Made by a program: the position numbers and the translations under genes. Of a stretch of DNA of 64,000 nucleotides, positions 25,771 to 43,290 are shown one piece after another. The DNA lies in IMG/VR virus record IMGVR_UViG_3300017963_000246; one strand, written 5' to 3'. The DNA is from a virus. Under the pieces are notes generated by a model. The model was not told the DNA's origin, ran no database searches, and saw nothing but the letters and a program-made list of their open reading frames with translations. Every line of letters starts with the position of its first letter. The stretch's first letter is position 1.

Positions 25771-27441
25771 CTAGATTTCTCCGCGGACGAACCCGGAGAT
25801 GGTGTTCGGCGTAGCCGTACTGTACCCTACCACATCGAGCATCCCTGGGTCGGTTGGGTCGCTGATGGAGAATCCGTTGCTCGTCATCCCCACGACAACG
25901 AGCTTGGCGTCGATTCCGGTTTTTTCCCGATACAGTTGCACGGCTTGACATGGGTGCATCTCGGGATTCGCCCACGTCTCGGAATCAGTGTAAATCAAAA
26001 ACGCGTCGACGTCCCAGCCCTTCTCCAGGGCGTAGAGCATCGGCAGCGCGCAGTCTGTCCCCCCGAAAGGCATCCCGTCGGTCAGCGCGACCACGTCGTC
26101 GAGGCGCTGCCTCTTGGACAGCGGAAGAACAGAGATGCCGTCCTTCCCGCCATATCCCCAGCGGCTCCTGCCCTTCTTCGCCATCGCGCCCTCCCCTGCG
26201 CACGAGAACGCGGTCGTGAACACCTTGTCCTCCGTCCGAAGCGCGACCATCGCCATCGCGGCCGAGCCGGCCCGCGGCGTGACGCCGGTCATCCCGGCGA
26301 CCTCTCCATTGGACATCGACCCAGACACGTCGAGCGCGAGCATCATCCGTTTCCCCGCAGGTTCCACGTTCTGGAACGACAAGTAGAACGCCTCGTCCAG
26401 CGCGTCGACAATACCTGTGATGGGGTCCCAGGAAAGCGAACCGCGAAACCCGTGTCCCTGCTCGTAAGTCTTCATCGCGACCAGGACGGACAGGGGATGG
26501 ACGCGGGCCTTGGCAAGGCGCTCTGGATCGAGCAGCCGCATGCACACAACGTCCGTGTCGGCGCTCAGCGGTTTCAAGAGACCGATCTGGGTCATCTTCC
26601 CCAAGTTGCGAAGCATCGCCGTCATCGGCATCTTGTCCAACAGCGCGGACCACACGACCTCGCTTTTCAGATGCTCGGTCGGTACCATCTCCCTGGTCAA
26701 CCTGTATAGGCTGATGGCTTCAGCGACGTCAACCGACGTGGCCTCCCGCTTCAGAGATTCGAACGCGTTGATTTGGGCAAGGTGCGCAGGCGGGTCGGTC
26801 AAGATGGTGCCTTCCCATCCGTTCACGGCCCAGTTGTACAGATCGTTGTGCGGACCGTCAACCGGGTTCACGTGTGCCTTGCGCAAGACGTCTCTGTGGG
26901 ACCAGCCGTCCCGGCTCTGGTACTTTAGCAACTGGTAGGCGAGTCGGTCGGCCGGCTTATCGTTGTACCAATGCGCAAACGCCTCCCGCAACCCGCGTCC
27001 CCAGCCACGGAATCCCTGCACGAACTCCGCGAAGTGGAACAAGTGCGTGCCGATTCGCGCGACTTTCGGGAGAGCCGCGTATGCCAGATTGCGTGTCTCG
27101 TTGTCATCTGCCGCGGCGGCCATCGCCAGCGCGAACAGCGCGGGGTCGTTCTTCGGCGCGCGGCCGGCTAGGGATATTTCAACGATACGCTCAACTGTCC
27201 TAGCTCCGTCTTCCTTTAGGCATTCCGCCACGGCCTCGGCGTTCTCCCTGGTCAATTCCCGCGCGGTGGCGTAGTACGTGTTCGCGGACGAACCCAGGAC
27301 GAGGAATCGGTCAAGGCGCTTCCAGCAGTCAAGCCCGAATACGAACCCGCCGGCGCGGCCTTTCACCATCGCCTTGCCAGGGATGGGCTCCGACTGGGGA
27401 GTCTTACGGGTCTGATAGAGGTTCTTGTAGTTCCAGGACAT
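25771..27441 (-). CDS. rsr: Ro60-related protein (Rsr): TROVE domain + vWA domain
   Basis: ATG 27441 behind AAAGGAGAA. N-terminus FGLDCWKRLDRFLVLGSSANTYYA and LAGRAPKNDPALFALA (TROVE-like). C-terminal vWA with MIDAS LDVSGSM, FGGTDCALP, FLIYTDSETW and GMLDVVGYSTATPNTISGFVRGEI tail, as in bacterial Rsr. Confidence 0.9.
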   Translation of the reverse strand: MSWNYKNLYQTRKTPQSEPIPGKAMVKGRAGGFVFGLDCWKRLDRFLVLGSSANTYYATARELTRENAEAVAECLKEDGARTVERIVEISLAGRAPKNDPALFALAMAAAADDNETRNLAYAALPKVARIGTHLFHFAEFVQGFRGWGRGLREAFAHWYNDKPADRLAYQLLKYQSRDGWSHRDVLRKAHVNPVDGPHNDLYNWAVNGWEGTILTDPPAHLAQINAFESLKREATSVDVAEAISLYRLTREMVPTEHLKSEVVWSALLDKMPMTAMLRNLGKMTQIGLLKPLSADTDVVCMRLLDPERLAKARVHPLSVLVAMKTYEQGHGFRGSLSWDPITGIVDALDEAFYLSFQNVEPAGKRMMLALDVSGSMSNGEVAGMTGVTPRAGSAAMAMVALRTEDKVFTTAFSCAGEGAMAKKGRSRWGYGGKDGISVLPLSKRQRLDDVVALTDGMPFGGTDCALPMLYALEKGWDVDAFLIYTDSETWANPEMHPCQAVQLYREKTGIDAKLVVVGMTSNGFSISDPTDPGMLDVVGYSTATPNTISGFVRGEI

Positions 27442-27460
27442 TTCGATTCTCCTTTCCGAA

Positions 27461-27490
27461 CAAAAAGGCGCGGCCCACACGGACCGCGCC
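27461..27490 (-). terminator. intrinsic terminator closing the ncRNA array
   Basis: Minus-strand GGCGCGGuccgugugggCCGCGCC followed by TTTTTG; lies ~20 nt upstream of the rsr SD. Confidence 0.7.
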
Positions 27491-27494
27491 ACGG

Positions 27495-27775
27495 CTCACA
27501 AATGCGGGCAAAAGGTTGTGCACGGGGATAACCATTCTGTAGGTAACCGTGCACGAGCGGCCCTGCAACGAACTCATTCAAGATGCGGGCGAAACGTGTG
27601 GTCGGGGACCGGAATTCTCCGGCTGGCGGATATCTAGTCCGCTCTATGGCATGAAGCCATCGGCAGATAACCGAGCCACGGTCGGCCCTGCATCGTCTTT
27701 CAGTTGTTAAGCGGACGAACGATTGCGCAGCGGCTTTATCTCCACAGGATAACGCTGCACGAGCGGCCCTGCTAG
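27495..27775 (-). ncRNA. three structured RNA modules sharing the AGGGCCG-N9-10-GGUUAYC core (candidate Y-RNA-like RNAs)
   Basis: Cores at 27747-27770, 27666-27689 and 27542-27564. In each module the 3' part of the core opens a hairpin with compensatory changes (GCAGCG/CGCUGC; GGCUCGG/CCG..AGCC; GUGCACGG/CCGUGCAC). A duplicated UUyGCCCGCAUyU box follows modules 4 and 5. No credible ORF. Confidence 0.55.
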
Positions 27776-27885
27776 TAGGAAAGGCCGGATTCGAACCGGA
27801 TTGACATTTGCCAGGTAACCTTCGTACGGCGGCCCTCAGGGCGAAAGTGTCCGAAGGGTTCCCTCCCAACGAGGGTCCTTTCCTA
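27776..27885 (-). ncRNA. tRNA-like RNA 2 (cloverleaf frame with replaced anticodon arm)
   Basis: Acceptor AGGAAAG/CUUUCCU (7 bp), D-arm CCCUC-GUUGG-GAGGG, T-arm CCGG-UUCGAAU-CCGG. About 55 nt containing the conserved core (27814-27836) sit where the anticodon arm should be; no canonical anticodon loop. Confidence 0.6.
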
Positions 27886-27895
27886 TTGGTGTAGG

Positions 27896-28017
27896 GATGT
27901 GGGGCTGGACTTGAACCAGCGGCCTCTCCATTACAAGTGGTAACCTTCTCGACGTCGGCCCTCTTGGGGCTAAAGTGCCGGAAGGGATTTAGCGCTCTTC
28001 CTCTGAGCTACCCACAT
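27896..28017 (-). ncRNA. tRNA-like RNA 1 (cloverleaf frame with ~50-nt conserved insertion)
   Basis: Acceptor AUGUGGG/CCCACAU (7/7 bp), UA, D-arm GCUC-AGAGGAA-GAGC, T-arm GCUGG-UUCAAGU-CCAGC. The conserved core (27939-27962) lies between the D-arm and a degenerate anticodon-like hairpin (loop CUUGUAA). The 5' end coincides with the predicted TSS of promoter 28026-28054; no encoded CCA. Confidence 0.6.
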
Positions 28018-28025
28018 CCAAGCAC

Positions 28026-28054
28026 ATTATACCATGAACTGACGGTCTTGTCAA
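28026..28054 (-). promoter_or_regulatory. sigma70-type promoter P1 (drives the ncRNA array)
   Basis: Minus strand TTGACA-17 nt-TATAAT with TGG extended -10. Confidence 0.8.
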
Positions 28055-28281
28055 TACGCGATTTCAAGTCGTGCTTTCACGTCGTCGAGCCATTCCGCCG
28101 TGGGCTGGCCCTCTTGGTCTATGCCGATGCAAAGCGTCCGTTCCTCATACCGGATATGGTCAGAATGACCTCCGGCTTCGCACCATGTGAGAATAGTCGC
28201 CTGGTTTCGGATGTACGCGCCAACAAAGACTAATACTACCACAAGAAAGACACAACAGACTATACCTATCCATGCATCCAT
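28051..28281 (-). CDS. small membrane protein
   Basis: ATG 28281 behind AAGGAGG; MDAWIGIVCCVFLVVVLVFVGAYI TM helix; 76 aa. Confidence 0.55.
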   Translation of the reverse strand: MDAWIGIVCCVFLVVVLVFVGAYIRNQATILTWCEAGGHSDHIRYEERTLCIGIDQEGQPTAEWLDDVKARLEIAY

Positions 28282-31051: not shown

Positions 31052-31290
31052 CACCCCTCCCCTACAAAGATGCAACTACAAGATATCAGTTGTCCTCCGC
31101 ATAAAGGACAGATTTCCATGTCACATCCGGGATGGTGATAGCCTCCAGTTGTCACACCGCAGTCCGGGCACCGCTCGCCAGTATACGGGATGGGGTCCAT
31201 CTTGCTCCCAGTCGCAAAAACTATCGGTACTTTATCACACGACTTTGTGACCAGCATGTCTCGCCCGCAATATTCGCAAACAGCCATCAC
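31051..31290 (-). CDS. cysteine-rich zinc-binding protein
   Basis: 79 aa with CEYCG, CPDCG, HHPGC, CPLCG motifs. Confidence 0.65.
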   Translation of the reverse strand: MMAVCEYCGRDMLVTKSCDKVPIVFATGSKMDPIPYTGERCPDCGVTTGGYHHPGCDMEICPLCGGQLISCSCIFVGEG

Positions 31291-32453
31291 TTCTCCTTGG
31301 CCAACTGGTGCCGGACGAGGGTTTCAAAGGCTTTGTCCTCATCGACGCCGGCAATGGCTTTGGATGCGTGGTTCTGCGCGTTGTAGCCCAAGATTTTCCA
31401 CCAACGGACGTCCTTGTCGCCGCCGATGGAGCTCCACAGCCCTTCCCAAGTCACGGGTCCGAGTTTCAGCAGCGCGGCAAGCGCGGTCTCATGCCCCTGC
31501 TCGACGAGCCCCCATAGGGTCGCTGGGTCCTCTTCAAACACCTGCTTGAGCGTCTTCCCGTCAACGACCGTGAGCTCCGGTTTGTCGATGGGTAGCTTTT
31601 GCGTCTGGCGTTTCGGTTTTTCTGACTGCTCCAAGGTGCCGGTCGGCGCTTCCGGTTTCGGTTCCGGCCTCTCTGGCACGTCCTCGTACTCGGCGTCCAC
31701 GCCCTCGTCATAGCTGGGGTCGTACGGCTCGTCGACCGAAGCGGGAAGCAACGCCTCCCGCGCGCGGACCTGCGCGGCCTCGAACTCACCGCGCAGAAAC
31801 TCGTCGGTCAACTGGATGTGCACAAGCGACTTCGTGACCTTCATCCGTTTGCCGGTTTTGAGGTTCGGCGCTCCGATGCGCTCGTCCTCTCTCCACAGCG
31901 TGAACGGTTTGCCGTCCAGCGGTTCCGCAGCGACAAGCTTTGACGCTATCTCCGAGATGTCGTGCCAGCCGTGCGTGATGAGCGTGACCGTGCCGATATG
32001 CCCGGCCTTCCAGAGTTCAGGAAGGATGAGCTCCAGCCGGCCGACCGGCTTGACCTCGCACTCCGGACACTTGTTCTCGACGTCCTTGCAGTCGAATTCG
32101 CATGGACGACTCCCGTGCCGCGTGCGCGGACCCTCTATCCAATCGACCCAGTTCTCCCCGTCGCACCGCAGCTTCAGGATGTTGCTCTGCGTGTACGTCT
32201 CCCGCCAGGACGAGAACGCCTCTTCCAGGTTGCGCCCCTGAACGTACACGGGCTGGATGATGCGCGGCTCCTCGCCGTAGGCGTCATGGAACGCCTTGAT
32301 GACCAGTGGATCTGGTGAGTCGAAGCGGAAGTGGTCGAGGTCCTGGGGCATCCGGCCCCGCGCCGCGTCTTTGCTCTCACCCTTCTTCAGCTTTCCAAGC
32401 GACTTGAACCTCGGTGTGATGCTGTCTCTGTCCGTTGCTCCCTTGATGGGCAT
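31287..32453 (-). CDS. hypothetical DNA-metabolism protein with internal Cys4 zinc ribbon
   Basis: 388 aa, GGGAGG SD; CEFDC..NKCPEC; acidic Pro/Glu-rich linker and C-terminal domain. Position next to replication/recombination genes suggests an annealing or ssDNA-binding role, which is not demonstrable here. Confidence 0.8.
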   Translation of the reverse strand: MPIKGATDRDSITPRFKSLGKLKKGESKDAARGRMPQDLDHFRFDSPDPLVIKAFHDAYGEEPRIIQPVYVQGRNLEEAFSSWRETYTQSNILKLRCDGENWVDWIEGPRTRHGSRPCEFDCKDVENKCPECEVKPVGRLELILPELWKAGHIGTVTLITHGWHDISEIASKLVAAEPLDGKPFTLWREDERIGAPNLKTGKRMKVTKSLVHIQLTDEFLRGEFEAAQVRAREALLPASVDEPYDPSYDEGVDAEYEDVPERPEPKPEAPTGTLEQSEKPKRQTQKLPIDKPELTVVDGKTLKQVFEEDPATLWGLVEQGHETALAALLKLGPVTWEGLWSSIGGDKDVRWWKILGYNAQNHASKAIAGVDEDKAFETLVRHQLAKEK

Positions 32454-33143: not shown

Positions 33144-33833
33144 TCAGTCTCCTTTCAGTTCATTTCTATCTGTTTCTGGTGCGAACCCGTCAGGCCACAC
33201 CGTGTACTCATTCCAATGCGCCCATCTCAGGTTGGACCATCTCAGGTTGGCCCCGCGCAGGTTGGCCCATCTCAGGTCGGCCCCGCGCAGGTTGGCCCCG
33301 CGCAGGTTGGCCTCGTACAGGGTGGCCCCGCTCAGGTTGGCCCCGCGCAGGTCGGCCCCGCGCAGGTCGGCCAGGCGCAGCTCGGCCCCGCGCAGGTTGG
33401 CCCCGCGCAGGTTGGCCCCGCTCAGGGTGGCCTCGTACAGGTTGGCCTCGTACAGGTTGGCCCCGCTCAGGGTGGCCTCGTACAGGTTGGCCCCGCGCAG
33501 GTCGGCCCCGCGCAGGTCGGCCAGGCGCAGGTACCGCCACAACGCACGCGGCGACACGCGGCGCAACTCGACGGCCTGGTAACTGCCCTTGTCTTCGTCT
33601 TCACCCACCAGCACAACACCCCGCGCCCACCATGCCCGCCAGTCGCGTGGTGCCCAACGAGCATCAAGTGATTTCATCAGGTGCAGTCGCCCCGGCCCGC
33701 AGGCCCTGCCGTCTGGCTCTGCTGGCTCCGGGTGTTCTGTGCGTGCCCATTTCTGACCGCGTTGGGGCAGGTTGTAGACGAATGGCTCGCCTTTGTAGTA
33801 AGTGCATCCTGTCGGGTCAAGGAATTTCCACAT
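33144..33833 (-). CDS. pentapeptide-repeat protein
   Basis: ATG 33833 behind AAGGGAG; about 27 consecutive A(D/N)LxG-type pentapeptides ([28 protein letters not shown]...) following a ~90-aa N-terminal domain. Confidence 0.85.
33225..33535 (-). repeat. 15-nt-periodic tandem repeat (coding, pentapeptide repeats)
   Basis: ccccgcgcaggttggc-type units visible in the DNA; lies inside CDS 33144-33833. Confidence 0.8.
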
Positions 33834-33863
33834 TACAGTCTCCCTTCTTGTGTCTGGACACAA

Positions 33864-38979: not shown

Positions 38980-39902
38980 ATCACCCTCCTGCTCTGCGAC
39001 AACACCTGCCCGAACAACGAGTCGTCCGCCCGGATGAGCAGGTCGTCCGGTTTCATCGGAAAGGCGCACACGCGGACCTCCCGAATCGCCTTCGCCAATT
39101 CTTTCCCCAAGTCCCAGGCCGCCTTATCCGCGTCAGGGTCGAACCCGATGAGTAGCCGGCGGACGTTCTTGAAATGTGGAACCCATCGCATGTCGAACCC
39201 CTTGCACCCGTACACGGCGATGGTCGGGAACCCGTGCTGGTTCGCCACGATAGCCTTCTTGCATCCTTCCACAAGTAAGAGGTCCTTCTCCGTCGAAACA
39301 AGGTCGCTGCGGTACAGTTGCCGGCCCAGCCCCGCCCGATGAGGACGATATTTATTTCCGTTCGGGGCCCCGACTAGGCGGTGACGGATGTTGAGCAGAC
39401 GCTCTCCGGTGTGGTCGAACACGGGGATGGTGTGACTAGGTCGGTGCTCCTGGTCGGTCGGACACGTGTAGCAAAAGCCGAGAGCCAGGGTGTCCTGCGT
39501 CTCTTCGCTGATACCCTGGCTCTCCCACCATTTCCTCTCGTCTTCGTCCAGATAGTTGTGATACATCAGGTGGTCAGTGCACCGCGCCATCTCCTCCAAC
39601 CTGAGGACGCGCGCCGCCGTCTTCATCTGCTCGACGCGCATCCGGTTCTGCTCGCCCTCGATGCGGCGGAGGCGTATCTCGTCCGGGGTCAGAACCTGTC
39701 GCTCATCGTCGTCGAGCCAGCCTCGACATCCCCCTTTCCTGCAGAAAAATCCACCATTGAGGAATAAAATGAAGCCGTCCTCTTTGGCTTGCCCGCAGAT
39801 GGGACACGGCCCGTGGGCTTCGTCTCCCTGGACCTTGAACTCGAATCCTGGCCAGCGCTTCTCGGCAAGGGTAACCGCCTCAAAAATGCTCGTGAGGTTC
39901 AT
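38976..39902 (-). CDS. DnaG-like DNA primase (zinc finger + TOPRIM)
   Basis: HGPCPICG...FFCRKGGC zinc-binding region; LLLVEGCKKAI and LLIGFDPDADK (TOPRIM E and DxD); ATG 39902 in ATGA overlap. Confidence 0.8.
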   Translation of the reverse strand: MNLTSIFEAVTLAEKRWPGFEFKVQGDEAHGPCPICGQAKEDGFILFLNGGFFCRKGGCRGWLDDDERQVLTPDEIRLRRIEGEQNRMRVEQMKTAARVLRLEEMARCTDHLMYHNYLDEDERKWWESQGISEETQDTLALGFCYTCPTDQEHRPSHTIPVFDHTGERLLNIRHRLVGAPNGNKYRPHRAGLGRQLYRSDLVSTEKDLLLVEGCKKAIVANQHGFPTIAVYGCKGFDMRWVPHFKNVRRLLIGFDPDADKAAWDLGKELAKAIREVRVCAFPMKPDDLLIRADDSLFGQVLSQSRRVM

Positions 39903-40636
39903 CCGTGTCTCCCTTCTGTCAACAACTCCCAAACCGTCGCAACCACAAGCGGAACTTGTCCGTTGCCAATGGCGCTTCCGCGCTCCAGGTAATGGGCCAC
40001 CCCATTATCGCTTCCAGCGTTTCTATTGATGACTTGTAACCACACGTCTCGAGAGTTCTGTTTTCCAACTCTGCGTTGTACCGGTGCCTGCCCGTTTTGG
40101 AGATTCCCCAACCACGCCTTCCCATCGCTTTTGTTGGAGAAGGCCACAACGAAAAGCCTATCTCGCACAAACGGCGCTCCCACCTCGGCAGCCGATAACA
40201 CACGCCATCGCGCATCATACCCGCTTTGGGCCAACTCGCTGAGTACCTGTCCATAGTACCCGTGAGACCCGGCAAGCAAGCCTGGTACGTTTTCCAATAG
40301 AACCCATGCGGGTTGGACCTCTCTAATGATACGAATGGTGTCAGGCCACATGTTGCGCTCGTCTGCGTCGGCCTGCTGTCTGCCGGCGACTGAGAAGGGT
40401 TGGCACGGGAATCCCGCTGTGACGATATCCACGCATCCAGCCCAGGGACGCCCGTCGAATGTTCGGGCATCGTCCCAGATCGGGGCGTCGTCGAGCAGTC
40501 CGTCTGCGATTCTGGCTTGGAGCACGTCGATGCAATACTGTTCCCATTCGACGTAGCAGACGGTGCACCAGCCGAGCAACCATTTTGTGGCAAGTAGTCC
40601 TCCACCCACGCCGGCAAATAGCGCCAACTCATTCAT
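39899..40636 (-). CDS. DNA (cytosine-5)-methyltransferase
   Basis: Motif I LFAGVGGG, motif IV GFPCQPFS, motif VI LLENVPGL, motif VIII FVRDRLFVVA, motif X GNGQVP. Confidence 0.9.
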   Translation of the reverse strand: MNELALFAGVGGGLLATKWLLGWCTVCYVEWEQYCIDVLQARIADGLLDDAPIWDDARTFDGRPWAGCVDIVTAGFPCQPFSVAGRQQADADERNMWPDTIRIIREVQPAWVLLENVPGLLAGSHGYYGQVLSELAQSGYDARWRVLSAAEVGAPFVRDRLFVVAFSNKSDGKAWLGNLQNGQAPVQRRVGKQNSRDVWLQVINRNAGSDNGVAHYLERGSAIGNGQVPLVVATVWELLTEGRHG

Positions 40637-42399: not shown

Positions 42400-43290
42400 C
42401 TAAAACAGTTCCGGGCAATTGCGCTTGGTTTCCTCGATGACGCGGCCGTAGAGGCGCTTGAAGTCGACGGTCGGGAACTTGTGCTTCTTCACGATGTCCC
42501 ACATCTCGTCGGCCACGATGTCGTGCCAGACCCGCCCCAACAGTTCGGGTATCCTCTTGCGGGTGAGCGGGCCGGCGTCACGCATCTTGGCGAGGGCTTT
42601 CTCCACGCGCCCCCTGGTAACGTACTCGGTCGCGATTGCGAGCTCGACCTGCTGTTTCATCGCCACTGTTGGGGCTCCGAACGTCTCCAGGTTACGCTCC
42701 TTGAACTCGTTCTTGACCAGCTTCCCCCATACGGTCTCGCCCCACTCGTTCTCCCAACCGTATCGCTTGATGACGATACCTTCGCCGGGACCGTTGCCGT
42801 CCTCGATGAGATAGGTGTTACGGTCGAGCAGCCCGACCAGGTGCTCTTCGGTGGGACTGAGGACGACTTCGAGCGGCGCGATGACCGGAAAGGGCAGGGG
42901 CGAAACCAGGGGTTCGTACTCGTCGTATGCCAAGTATCGCTCCTCTGCGTCATGGTAGACGTCGAAGATGTAGAACTGTCGCCAGGCTTCCTTCCTGTAG
43001 GTGCGCAGGGTGTGGGGTACAAGCCACTCGCCGTACAGGCGCAGGTCGGGATAGTCCGTAAAGAACGGCAGGAAGTCGTCGGTGTGTTCGGCTACGAACG
43101 CCAGGAACCCGGCGTTGTCTTCCCCTTCCGACAGGTGGCGTCTCCGGCTGCCGGCACACAGTTGCCCGGTGTCCATCCACACGCTGGCGTTCGTGCCGTC
43201 AATCTTCGGGAACACGTAGCAGGTGCCGTCCAGCAGCCCGGCGACCTCGTCGCTCCCCAATCTCTCGATGTGCCTGTACTTCTTGAACAT
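42400..43290 (-). CDS. ATP-dependent RNA ligase (Rnl2/PF09414-like nucleotidyltransferase)
   Basis: Motif I FPKIDGTNASVW (KxDGxN), motif IV GEGIVIKRY, motif V WGKLVKNEFKE; AAAGGAGA SD; first gene after P4. Confidence 0.75.
   Translation of the reverse strand: MFKKYRHIERLGSDEVAGLLDGTCYVFPKIDGTNASVWMDTGQLCAGSRRRHLSEGEDNAGFLAFVAEHTDDFLPFFTDYPDLRLYGEWLVPHTLRTYRKEAWRQFYIFDVYHDAEERYLAYDEYEPLVSPLPFPVIAPLEVVLSPTEEHLVGLLDRNTYLIEDGNGPGEGIVIKRYGWENEWGETVWGKLVKNEFKERNLETFGAPTVAMKQQVELAIATEYVTRGRVEKALAKMRDAGPLTRKRIPELLGRVWHDIVADEMWDIVKKHKFPTVDFKRLYGRVIEETKRNCPELF

What the first reader, a model, noticed from the sequence alone, without database searches (positions are those of the whole stretch)
27495..28017. 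Five RNA modules share one conserved core; two are tRNA-shaped with the anticodon arm replaced
Seen on the minus strand: the core 5'-AGGGCCG-N9-10-GGUUAYC-3' occurs five times (27962-27939, 27836-27814, 27770-27747, 27689-27666, 27564-27542). Units 1 and 2 are framed by cloverleaf parts. The acceptor stems are 7/7 bp (AUGUGGG/CCCACAU and AGGAAAG/CUUUCCU). The D-arms have GG in the loop. The T-arms have UUCAAGU and UUCGAAU loops. About 50-55 nt containing the core sit where the anticodon arm belongs. Flanking pairings covary between the two units (CCUUC/GAAGG vs CCUUCG/CGAAGG; CGG..CCC-loop-GGGCCG in both, with a CACUUUAG / ACACUUUCG bulge). Units 3-5 lack acceptor and T arms. In them the core opens hairpins with compensatory changes: GCAGCG/CGCUGC enclosing UUAUC-CUGUGGA-GAUAA, and GUGCACGG/CCGUGCAC. 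The AGGGCCG heptamer differs by one base from my recollection of GGUCCGA in the Ro-binding helix of vertebrate Y RNAs. Inference: these are Y-RNA-like molecules in which a Ro-binding module is grafted into a tRNA frame. The topology differs from YrlA: here the acceptor ends are free and could be cut by RNase P/Z, whereas YrlA has a closed acceptor with its ends in the Ro stem. I do not know of a described class with this layout.
Basis: partly seen in the sequence, partly recalled or inferred. Interest (0 to 1): 0.8.

Follow-up and report, generated by a model that had tools for sequence, protein, structure and literature searches.

The report
Phage Y RNAs built like tRNAs
Just upstream of a phage Ro60 (rsr) gene sits a five-part Y RNA operon, and two of its parts are tRNA-shaped Y RNAs wired the opposite way round from the known YrlA class, a layout I also found in many other phages and bacteria and could not find described.

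Summary
On the minus strand, 27459-28054 is a self-contained non-coding operon. It has a perfect sigma-70 promoter, five RNA modules and an intrinsic terminator, and it ends 18 nt before the start codon of a Ro60/Rsr gene (TROVE + vWA).

All five modules carry the conserved Y RNA Ro-binding helix. The 5' strand is GGGCCG-N9-10-GGUUAYC. The partner strand is CUUUNGCCC. Units 3-5 are ordinary Y RNAs, with their ends in that helix.

Units 1-2 are YrlA relatives with the opposite connectivity:
- The 7-bp acceptor stem is open.
- The Ro helix is capped by a 3-5 nt loop and sits where the anticodon arm would be.

This layout is not peculiar to this window. I found 48 such units in viral contigs, cyanobacteria, myxobacteria, Chloroflexota and Armatimonadota. 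Where enough flanking DNA was held, they lie beside Ro60 genes on the same strand. The evidence:
- Acceptor stems covary strongly.
- The Ro helix covaries.
- The capping loops are often stable tetraloops.
- CCA is often encoded at the 3' end.

Rfam's YrlA model misses them, and I found no description in the searchable literature.

Verdict: a real feature and a new variant of a known kind. Ro60 binding, processing and function are inferred, not tested.

The parts
28026..28054 (-). Sigma-70-type promoter, TTGACA-17 nt-TATAAT with an extended -10 TG. The inferred transcription start is near 28019/28018, the GG directly before the unit 1 acceptor stem.
   Evidence: 12 of 12 consensus matches. The start site is inferred from promoter geometry.
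27896..28017 (-). Unit 1, a tRNA-frame Y RNA of 122 nt. Acceptor 5' strand 28017-28011; U8 A9; D arm 28008-27994; Y (Ro-binding) arm 27985-27944; UUA; V hairpin 27940-27923; T arm 27920-27904; acceptor 3' strand 27903-27897; discriminator C at 27896. GG at 28019-28018 can extend the acceptor stem to 9 bp by pairing with CC at 27896-27895.
   Evidence: the fold is a cloverleaf; 98 bits with model R1; 7/7 acceptor pairing; 43 nt, 90.7% identical to a canonical YrlA.
27944..27985 (-). Unit 1 Y arm. Upper stem CCUUCCGGC / GUCG-A-GAAGG. Internal loop ACUUUA / CGAC. Lower stem GCCC / GGGC, capped by CAAGA.
27776..27884 (-). Unit 2, a tRNA-frame Y RNA of 109 nt and more degenerate. It has G8 instead of U8, an atypical D arm (CCCUC-GUUGG-GAGGG) and a 4-bp T stem. 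Y arm 27857-27819: upper stem CCUUCGGAC / GUACGAAGG, lower stem GCCC-UGA-GGGC. Discriminator A at 27776.
   Evidence: 60 bits; 7/7 acceptor pairing; only 3/7 cross-pairing with unit 1.
27710..27773 (-). Unit 3, a canonical (YrlB-like) Y RNA. Lower stem AGC-A-GGGC / GUCC-GCU. Upper stem CGUGCAGCG / CGCUGCG. Apical hairpin UUAUC-CUGUGGA-GAUAA.
27583..27693 (-). Unit 4, a canonical Y RNA. Lower stem AUGC-A-GGGC / GCCC-GCAU. Upper stem GUGG-C-UCGG / CCGACCAC. The apical domain has three hairpins.
   Evidence: MFE -44.8 kcal/mol, z = -2.9.
27503..27567 (-). Unit 5, a canonical Y RNA. Lower stem UGC-A-GGGC / GCCC-GCA. Upper stem CGUGCACGG / CCGUGCAC.
   Evidence: z = -3.2.
27459..27490 (-). Intrinsic terminator, GGCGCGGUCC-GUGU-GGGCCGCGCC followed by a U run.
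25771..27441 (-). rsr, a Ro60 orthologue of 556 aa. Ribosome-binding site GGAAAGGAG; start codon ATG at 27441.
   Evidence: Pfam vWA_Ro60 1.8e-53 and TROVE 1.9e-44; 355 phage records carry homologues annotated as Ro-like RNA-binding protein.

Best explanation
The region is a phage Y RNA operon that serves the Ro60 (Rsr) gene just downstream.

One strong promoter drives a precursor of about 560 nt. It holds five modules and stops at a terminator in front of rsr.

Each module contains the bulged helix that Ro60 recognises in Y RNAs:
- a lower stem GGGC/GCCC;
- an internal loop holding the invariant CCG on one side and CUUU on the other;
- a covarying upper stem of 8-9 bp, followed by UUAYC.

Units 3-5 are plain Y RNAs whose two ends form that helix.

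Units 1-2 are homologues of the tRNA-like Y RNA YrlA, but circularly permuted relative to it. The chain starts and ends in a 7-bp acceptor stem, as in a real tRNA. The Ro helix is closed by a small loop and projects from the anticodon-arm position.

The following steps are inferred:
1. RNase P and the tRNA 3'-end enzymes cut at the acceptor stems. This releases units 1 and 2 and also creates the 5' end of unit 3.
2. CCA is added.
3. Rsr binds the capped helix.
4. The tRNA-like body tethers Rsr to a host partner, either a tRNA-binding enzyme or PNPase, during infection.
For: Shown by sequence or computation:
- A Ro60 gene lies 18 nt beyond the terminator.
- Five copies of the core are present, against 0.01 expected.
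- Units 1 and 2 fold as cloverleaves and units 3-5 as Y stems.
- Unit 1 shows sequence homology to a canonical YrlA.
- The promoter leaves no upstream core that could pair with the partner strand of unit 1.
- The core of unit 2 has no downstream partner strand.
- Acceptor pairing between units 1 and 2 is only 3/7, against 7/7 within each unit.

The class recurs:
- Model R1 finds 48 units in viral, genomic and metagenomic contigs.
- In the first 38-hit alignment, 36 hits have closing loops of 4-8 nt. Of these, 34 have 7/7 and 2 have 6/7 acceptor pairing.
- The two hits with 30-38 nt 'loops' are neighbouring units of canonical arrays. They pair only 5/7 and 4/7.
- Covariation: 98.1% of cells are paired, against 36-52% when the partners are slid. 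All 7 acceptor pairs show changes on both sides.
- Acceptor pairing is 6.94/7 with the unit's own partner and 3.61/7 with other units' partners. There are 28 distinct acceptor strands.
- The upper Ro helix scores -9.07 kcal/mol with its own partner and -5.21 with others (permutation p < 1e-4).
- Closing loops are often GNRA, UUCG or CUUG tetraloops.
- 11 loci hold a single unit, where no alternative reading exists.
- A Ro60 gene lies on the same strand within about 1 kb wherever enough flank was held.
- CCA is encoded directly after the discriminator in 8 of 48 units. In 6 more, A-CCA follows an 8-bp stem. About 0.75 is expected per register.

Precedent from the literature:
- M. smegmatis YrlA is cut by RNase P in its acceptor loop and gains CCA, and both halves stay bound to Rsr (PMC4201824).
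- Ro60 of Thermus phage phiLo, together with its Yrl RNAs, binds host PNPase (PMC12135203).
Against: - There are no expression, end-mapping or binding data for any member of the class.
- No close orthologue of this particular array was found (best Ro60 identity 57%), so unit-specific covariation cannot be tested.
- The window units have only a 4-bp lower stem with a 3-5 nt cap. Most relatives have 5 bp plus a tetraloop.
- Unit 2 lacks U8, has an odd D arm and scores only 60 bits.
- Folding z-scores of units 1 and 2 alone are modest (-1.9 and -1.5).
- The global MFE of the whole precursor does not keep the unit 1 cloverleaf intact.
- Model R1 was seeded with units I had picked for acceptor pairing. 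Alignments fitted to it therefore lean towards the structure. Later hits from other collections were not pre-selected.
- In cyanobacterial arrays the acceptors of neighbouring units are similar (cross-pairing 5-7 of 7). There the canonical reading, with a long acceptor stem, is not excluded.
Confidence: 0.8

Rival explanations
1. Units 1 and 2 are halves of an ordinary YrlA read in a shifted frame. In this reading one molecule runs core 1 - V - T arm 1 - spacer - D arm 2 - partner strand 2, with a closed 'acceptor' stem-loop made from the inter-unit spacer.
For: - The order T arm, then D arm across the unit 1/unit 2 junction is the canonical YrlA order.
- The partner strand of unit 2 could pair with the core of unit 1, because both units share CCUUC/GAAGG and GCCC/GGGC.
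- Model R1 also scores the junctions of true canonical arrays at 30-54 bits.
Against: - The would-be acceptor stem (CCCACAU...AGGAAAG) pairs only 3/7.
- This reading strands the D arm and partner strand of unit 1, which sit directly after the promoter. It also strands the core, V hairpin and T arm of unit 2, which have no downstream partner.
- Rfam YrlA gives no hit even at E = 10.
- Single-unit loci and arrays with unlike acceptors show the same architecture.
Confidence: 0.04
2. Units 1 and 2 are genuine tRNA genes interrupted by an intron-like insert that is removed, giving decoding tRNAs. Unit 1 would be a tRNA-Thr(UGU), with its V hairpin serving as the anticodon arm.
For: - ARAGORN with its intron option calls both units.
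- Rfam's tRNA model scores several relatives above its gathering threshold.
- The V hairpin of unit 1 can be drawn as UACCA-CUUGUAA-UGGAG, which resembles a Thr anticodon arm.
Against: - The 'anticodons' ARAGORN assigns are arbitrary and differ between homologous units.
- V hairpins vary in loop size from 3 to 11 nt, or are absent. Unit 2 has a 4-nt loop.
- The insert is the most conserved part. It carries the Y RNA Ro motif and covaries as a helix.
- The units track Ro60 genes.
- From my own knowledge, no bacterial mechanism is known that would splice a 45-50 nt insert at the junction of positions 26 and 27. Bacterial tRNA introns are group I and far larger.
Confidence: 0.03
3. The array is mainly a cis-acting leader of the rsr mRNA. 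Rsr would bind the Y-like helices in its own 5' UTR to autoregulate terminator read-through or translation, and no free small RNAs would be produced.
For: - The array lies directly upstream of rsr on the same strand.
- No separate rsr promoter was detected between the terminator and the start codon, so rsr may depend on read-through.
Against: - In many relatives the units lie downstream of rsr: L009, L030, L053, L055, L090, L145 and L200.
- A strong terminator separates the array from rsr.
- Covarying acceptor stems and encoded CCA point to released, tRNA-like molecules.
- M. smegmatis YrlA and YrlB, which lie upstream of rsr, are processed from one precursor into free Rsr-bound RNAs.
Confidence: 0.08
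4. The cloverleaf parts are decayed relics of phage tRNA genes next to Y RNAs and have no function of their own.
For: - Unit 2 is degenerate: no U8, a 4-bp T stem and an odd D arm.
- Ro60 loci often sit at the edge of phage tRNA arrays.
Against: Relics would not keep any of the following:
- 7/7 acceptor pairing through 28 different sequences;
- U8 in 40 of 44 units and canonical T loops;
- tetraloop-capped Ro helices across several phyla.
Confidence: 0.03

Closest known systems
YrlA (Rfam RF02553; Chen et al. 2014, PMC4201824; Wang et al. 2018, bioRxiv 10.1101/312249)
   Same: - Encoded beside rsr on the same strand.
- Same Ro-binding 5' strand (a GNCGAA-like motif, then YUAY) and the same partner strand.
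- Same V hairpin. Unit 1 shares 43 nt at 90.7% identity with a prophage YrlA.
- tRNA-like D and T arms with U8, G18G19 and a UUCRANY T loop.
   Different: The connectivity is reversed. YrlA runs core - V - T arm - closed acceptor stem-loop - D arm - partner strand, with its ends in the Ro helix. The units here run acceptor 5' strand - D arm - partner strand - cap loop - core - V - T arm - acceptor 3' strand, with their ends in the acceptor stem. RF02553 does not detect them.
The processed form of M. smegmatis YrlA (cut by RNase P, CCA added; Chen et al. 2014)
   Same: It has an open 7-bp acceptor stem with a CCA end on a Ro-bound, tRNA-like Y RNA. It is processed from a polycistronic precursor upstream of rsr in an actinobacterial setting.
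   Different: There the open acceptor is made by cutting a closed loop, which gives a two-piece RNA with the Ro helix also open. Here the gene order itself gives a one-piece RNA with the Ro helix closed.
YrlB / D. radiodurans Yrn2 / metazoan Y RNAs and nematode sbRNAs
   Same: Units 3-5 have their 5' and 3' ends paired in the Ro-binding bulged helix, followed by UUAYC and a variable apical domain. The helix plan matches that of hY1: GGUC-CGAA-upper stem-GUUAUC on one strand, CACUU-GAC on the other.
   Different: The lower stem is GGGC/GCCC with a bulged A, instead of GGUC/GAC with a bulged C. Five modules share one transcript.
Circularly permuted tRNA genes (Cyanidioschyzon merolae) and two-piece tmRNA from permuted genes
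   Same: These are tRNA-type RNAs that exist in two gene orders related by circular permutation. Both orders give the same three-dimensional frame.
   Different: Those are processed back to a standard tRNA or tmRNA function. Here both orders appear to be end products, and the tRNA-like order is the newly noticed one. This comparison rests on my own knowledge and on the discussion.
b7a-tRNA (Burroughs and Aravind 2016, as cited in Wang et al. 2018)
   Same: It is a tRNA-like non-coding RNA with ordinary tRNA connectivity, linked to RNA-repair loci and occasionally found next to rsr.
   Different: It is described as strongly resembling an authentic tRNA. No Ro-binding helix in place of the anticodon arm is reported. 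I could not read the original paper.

Membership tests
Y RNA (Ro60-associated ncRNA) | Encoded next to a Ro60/TROVE gene on the same strand (the rule in bacteria and phages) | tested here: met
   The rsr start codon is at 27441, 18 nt after the array's terminator. The same linkage holds in relatives.
Y RNA (Ro60-associated ncRNA) | A conserved bulged helix with a GGUCCGA / GNCGAA-type 5' strand and a complementary 3' strand | tested here: met
   There are five cores, four exact and one with a single mismatch. Partner strands of the form CUUUNGCCC are present. The helix covaries in relatives.
Y RNA (Ro60-associated ncRNA) | The 5' and 3' termini of the RNA form the Ro-binding stem | tested here: not met
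   Predicted to be met for units 3-5. Not met for units 1-2, whose Ro stem is capped by CAAGA or UGA.
Y RNA (Ro60-associated ncRNA) | Bound by Ro60 in vivo or in vitro | not testable with these tools
   Needs EMSA or RIP.
YrlA (RF02553) | A tRNA-like domain ordered T arm - closed acceptor stem-loop - D arm, between the two strands of the Ro stem | tested here: not met
   The order is D arm - Ro stem - V hairpin - T arm, with an open acceptor stem. Cross-unit acceptor pairing is 3/7.
YrlA (RF02553) | Reaches the Rfam covariance-model gathering score of 69 bits | tested here: not met
   No hit even at E = 10. The positive controls themselves fall short of 69 bits: Cashline scores 42 bits and Cali 36 bits.
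YrlA (RF02553) | Conserved tRNA-like D and T arms plus a YUAY/V region after the Ro motif | tested here: met
   The stretch from the UUACC motif through the V hairpin to the T arm of unit 1 (43 nt) is 90.7% identical to a canonical YrlA.
tRNA (RF00005) | Acceptor, D and T arms in cloverleaf order, with a 7-bp acceptor stem and a discriminator base | tested here: met
tRNA (RF00005) | A 5-bp anticodon stem with a 7-nt loop at positions 27-43 | tested here: not met
   It is replaced by a 39-42 nt Ro helix plus a variable V hairpin. The anticodons ARAGORN assigns are arbitrary.
tRNA (RF00005) | Detected by standard tRNA finders | tested here: not met
   ARAGORN finds 0 genes in the window. Rfam finds 0 at gathering score and no tRNA hit at E = 10. 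Some relatives do pass RF00005.

The most novel reading that the evidence does not exclude
These are working tRNA/Y RNA hybrids. [quoted passage not shown] They could then be aminoacylated, or be recognised by tRNA-targeting enzymes such as anticodon nucleases, repair ligases, the CCA-adding enzyme or EF-Tu. They would thereby deliver Ro60 to the tRNA or translation machinery, or act as decoys for it, during phage infection. A corollary is that they represent the ancestral form from which canonical YrlA arose by tandem duplication and a frame shift.
Probability: 0.15. Interest if true: 0.9.

Novelty: new variant of a known kind. Interest (0 to 1): 0.68.

Why it matters
Bacterial Y RNAs are known in two forms: plain stems, and YrlA, described as a 'circularly permuted tRNA with a closed acceptor'. 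This finding adds a third form, apparently undescribed, that keeps native tRNA connectivity. It is widespread, occurring in phages, cyanobacteria, myxobacteria, Chloroflexota and Armatimonadota.

1. It may account for the groups where YrlA searches found few candidates. Chen et al. 2014 named cyanobacteria and delta-proteobacteria, and they discarded hits that overlapped tandem tRNA annotations.
2. It bears on the origin of YrlA. A tRNA whose anticodon arm became a Ro site, followed by tandem duplication, gives the permuted canonical form directly. The current model starts from a dimer of ordinary tRNAs.
3. A free, often CCA-encoding acceptor end makes the long-open question of what the tRNA-like domain does directly testable: charging, CCA addition, RNase P cleavage, repair.
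4. Current tools either miss these genes or would call them odd intron-containing tRNAs.

Culturable carriers exist for experiments: Nostoc punctiforme NIES-2108, Sorangium and Polyangium.

Tried and rejected
- Rfam at gathering score and at E = 10 on the window gave only chance hits: NmsRb, Plastid-ycf2 and sR53.
- Megablast of 25 kb of the window against phage genomes found nothing, so this is a novel phage.
- Distant blastn of the array gave only the 43-nt hit to a YrlA.
- A Ro-protein search of viral contigs and metagenomes found no relative above 57% identity, so this exact array has no orthologue to compare with.
- A metagenome scan for a window-specific pattern gave 0 hits.
- RNAalifold on MAFFT alignments did not recover the upper Ro helix, because the partner strand is out of register by 1-2 columns. 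I replaced it with an alignment-free test that compares each strand's own partner with other units' partners.
- The MFE of the whole 561-nt precursor shows long-range alternative pairings and was not informative.
- V hairpins are not consistently anticodon-like, so I dropped the idea that they decode.
- Five cultured Ro-encoding phages (Mareelih, A3Wally, SaltySpitoon, Gilson, Mandalore) show no strong permuted unit.
- Neighbouring genes have no informative Pfam or PHROG hits.
- Four papers could not be retrieved: the 2020 Annual Review, the 2018 Microbiology Spectrum chapter, the 2019 Critical Reviews article, and Burroughs and Aravind 2016. A prior description there cannot be excluded.
Full report
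**What is in the window.** On the minus strand, 28054-27459 is a compact non-coding unit.
- A promoter matches the sigma-70 consensus at 12 of 12 positions, with an extended -10 TG (TTGACA-17-TATAAT, 28054-28026). It should start transcription at about G28019/28018.
- Five RNA modules follow.
- A 10-bp GC-rich hairpin with a U run (27490-27459) ends the unit.
- Eighteen bases further on, ATG 27441 opens a 556-aa protein with the Pfam domains TROVE (1.9e-44) and Ro60 vWA (1.8e-53). This is a Ro60/Rsr orthologue.
- Its best relatives are 'Ro-like RNA binding proteins' of Gordonia, Mycobacterium and Streptomyces phages, at 48% identity or less.
- The window has no near match among sequenced phages, contains no tRNA gene and gives no Rfam hit.

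**Checking the observation.** The core AGGGCCG-N9-10-GGUUAYC occurs four times exactly (0.01 expected) and a fifth time with one mismatch. Each unit alone folds into a cloverleaf whose anticodon position holds a long hairpin. ARAGORN calls nothing by default. With introns allowed it calls arbitrary tRNAs (Leu-caa, Pro-cgg).

**What the core is.** It is the known 5' strand of the Ro-binding helix of Y RNAs. Chen et al. [quoted passage not shown]
- Phages Cashline and Cali carry GGGCCGGAGUUGAUCGGUUACC and AGGCCGAGAGUUUGUCGGUUACC upstream of their Ro genes. Both sit inside RNAs that Rfam's YrlA model recognises, at 42 and 36 bits.
- In Cashline the same stretch also partly matches the nematode sbRNA family.
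- All five window modules share one helix plan: lower stem GGGC/GCCC; an internal loop with CGNN opposite (A)CNUUUN; and an upper stem of 8-9 bp that differs from unit to unit, followed by UUAYC. The upper stems are:
  - unit 1: GUCG-A-GAAGG / CCUUCCGGC
  - unit 2: GUACGAAGG / CCUUCGGAC
  - unit 3: CGUGCAGCG / CGCUGCG
  - unit 4: GUGG-C-UCGG / CCGACCAC
  - unit 5: CGUGCACGG / CCGUGCAC

- In units 3-5 the partner strand lies downstream, so the RNA ends form the helix. These are ordinary YrlB-like Y RNAs.
- In units 1-2 the partner strand lies upstream of the core, and the lower stem is capped by CAAGA or UGA.

**Relation to YrlA.** The 3' half of unit 1 (UUACC, V hairpin, T arm) is 90.7% identical over 43 nt to a canonical YrlA of Mycobacterium abscessus prophage prophiGD43A-5. 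The record annotates that stretch, wrongly, as tRNA-Thr(tgt), and ARAGORN repeats the miscall.

The modules are therefore homologous, but the order differs.
- Canonical YrlA runs core - V - T arm - closed acceptor stem-loop - D arm - partner strand.
- Units 1-2 run acceptor 5' strand - D arm - partner strand - cap - core - V - T arm - acceptor 3' strand.

Reading the array in the canonical frame fails for four reasons.
- The promoter leaves no core upstream of the partner strand of unit 1.
- The core of unit 2 has no partner downstream.
- The inter-unit 'acceptor' pairs only 3/7.
- RF02553 gives no hit at E = 10.

**Is the layout real or a local accident?**
1. A pattern that requires a capped lower stem found 68 viral loci and more than 120 genomic loci. 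Many of these were chance matches or canonical arrays.
2. From 12 clear units I built covariance model R1 and searched all loci.
3. Forty-eight units of the same layout emerged.
   - Viral contigs: L005, L007, L008, L009 (three units), L015, L020, L022, L029, L030, L040, L053, L055.
   - Cyanobacteria: Nostoc punctiforme NIES-2108, Nostoc sp. LEGE 12447, a Leptolyngbyaceae genome and a Prochloraceae genome.
   - Myxobacteria: Sorangium, Polyangium and a Kofleriaceae genome.
   - Chloroflexota and Armatimonadota.
   - Three of about nine distinct metagenomic loci that were retrieved through the Ro protein alone: L194, L197, L200.
4. In the 38-hit alignment A2, the 36 hits with closing loops of 4-8 nt have 7/7 (34 hits) or 6/7 (2 hits) acceptor pairing. 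The two hits with 30-38 nt 'loops' are junctions of canonical arrays and pair only 5/7 and 4/7. They serve as an internal control.
5. Pair counts: 98.1% of cells form standard pairs, against 36-52% with slid partners. The covariation score is 0.74, against 0.17 or less. Every acceptor pair shows changes on both sides.
6. Tests that do not depend on the alignment:
   - Acceptor pairing is 6.94/7 with the unit's own partner and 3.61/7 with other units' partners, over 28 distinct acceptor strands.
   - The upper Ro helix scores -9.07 kcal/mol with its own partner and -5.21 with others (p < 1e-4).
7. Caps are frequently GNRA, UUCG or CUUG tetraloops.
8. Eleven loci hold a single unit. Arrays with unlike acceptors (window, L040, L053, L055) cross-pair only 3/7.
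9. U8 is present in 40 of 44 units, and T loops are canonical.
10. CCA follows the discriminator in 8 of 48 units. A-CCA follows an 8-bp stem in 6 more. About 0.75 is expected per register.
11. A Ro60 gene lies on the same strand within about 1 kb wherever the locus was long enough. It is upstream of the units in some loci and downstream in others.

**Caveats.**
- R1 was seeded with units chosen for acceptor pairing, and alignments fitted to it lean towards its structure.
- In cyanobacterial arrays neighbouring acceptors are alike (cross-pairing 5-7 of 7). There the canonical reading with a long acceptor stem is not excluded. This may be what Chen et al. reported as 'longer acceptor stems'. 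That link is my inference.
- No close relative of this very array exists in the collections searched.
- Unit 2 is degenerate: G8, an odd D arm, a 4-bp T stem and only 60 bits.

**How it most likely works.**
- Shown by sequence analysis: there is one transcription unit, with Ro-type helices in all five modules and native tRNA connectivity in units 1-2.
- Inferred, processing: RNase P and the tRNA 3'-end enzymes cut at the acceptor stems. Unit 3 begins 3 nt after the discriminator of unit 2, so these cuts also release it. This resembles tRNA punctuation.
- Inferred, CCA: CCA is completed by the host enzyme. Unit 1 encodes C-CC-U after its acceptor stem.
- Inferred, binding and partner: Rsr binds the capped helix, and the tRNA-like body recruits a partner.
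- Precedents for the inferred steps:
  - M. smegmatis YrlA and YrlB come from one precursor upstream of rsr.
  - M. smegmatis YrlA is cut by RNase P and receives CCA, and both halves stay with Rsr.
  - Phage phiLo Ro60 and its Yrl RNAs assemble with host PNPase.
- Context: the phage also encodes an RNA ligase (42400-43290). This fits the RNA-repair setting proposed for Ro/YrlA, but it is 15 kb away.

**Comparison and novelty.** Y RNAs, YrlA and their tRNA mimicry are known. What I could not find is this connectivity.
- It is not in Rfam 15. RF02553 misses the units. RF00005 scores some relatives as tRNAs with a long insert.
- It is not in Chen 2014 or Wang 2018, which describe YrlA as a 'circularly permuted tRNA with a closed acceptor' and derive it from dimeric tRNAs.
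- It did not turn up in full-text searches.

I therefore rate it a new variant of a known kind. It is of real interest to the Ro/Y RNA field, but it is not a new category.

Noticed in passing
window 42400-43290 (-): An RNA ligase gene (Pfam PF09414, 2.6e-18; phrog_548, 1.9e-45) sits in the replication module. The phage therefore carries Ro60, Y RNAs and an RNA ligase but no tRNA genes.
   Followed up: partly
L073 1474-1552 (GenBank MW584167, 26001-26079): The 'tRNA-Thr(tgt)' annotated in Mycobacterium phage prophiGD43A-5 is really the core, V hairpin and T arm of a canonical YrlA. ARAGORN reproduces the miscall. The locus has about five tandem Y RNAs upstream of its Ro gene.
   Followed up: yes
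L113, L141, L190 (Nostoc); L080; L093; L083; L007; L055; L143; L090; L200: Many permuted units encode CCA directly after the discriminator (8 of 48). Others encode A-CCA after an 8-bp acceptor stem (6 of 48). This is far above chance.
   Followed up: yes
Such genes could therefore be called odd or intron-containing tRNAs by tRNA finders. I did not check how public records annotate them.
   Followed up: partly
L020/L029/L054 (second unit), L011, L040 5934-6039: Variant units exist in which the D arm is missing or replaced by an unrelated hairpin. The acceptor stem, capped Ro helix and T arm are kept.
   Followed up: no
L023, L055, L065; L205 (Gordonia phage Mareelih): In several phages the Ro60 gene and its Y RNAs sit at the edge of large tRNA gene arrays. 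In Mareelih they lie next to tRNAs and a tmRNA gene.
   Followed up: no
L070 1034-1187: A unit with 7/7 acceptor pairing has a spacer of about 30 nt between the partner strand and the core. It may be an intermediate between the canonical and permuted arrangements.
   Followed up: no
window 27363-27869 (-) and 27937-28233 (+): Open reading frames of 168 and 98 aa overlap the RNA array. They are almost certainly spurious and could be mis-annotated as genes.
   Followed up: no
window 33144-33863 (-), 31287-32453 (-), 39899-40636 (-): The minus-strand arm also encodes a pentapeptide-repeat protein, a Gp3-like recombination directionality factor and a C5 cytosine DNA methylase.
   Followed up: no
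L208 1094-1221 (Streptomyces phage Gilson): A weak hit (29 bits) of the permuted model falls in an unannotated gap upstream of the Ro gene. It may be a divergent Y RNA.
   Followed up: no
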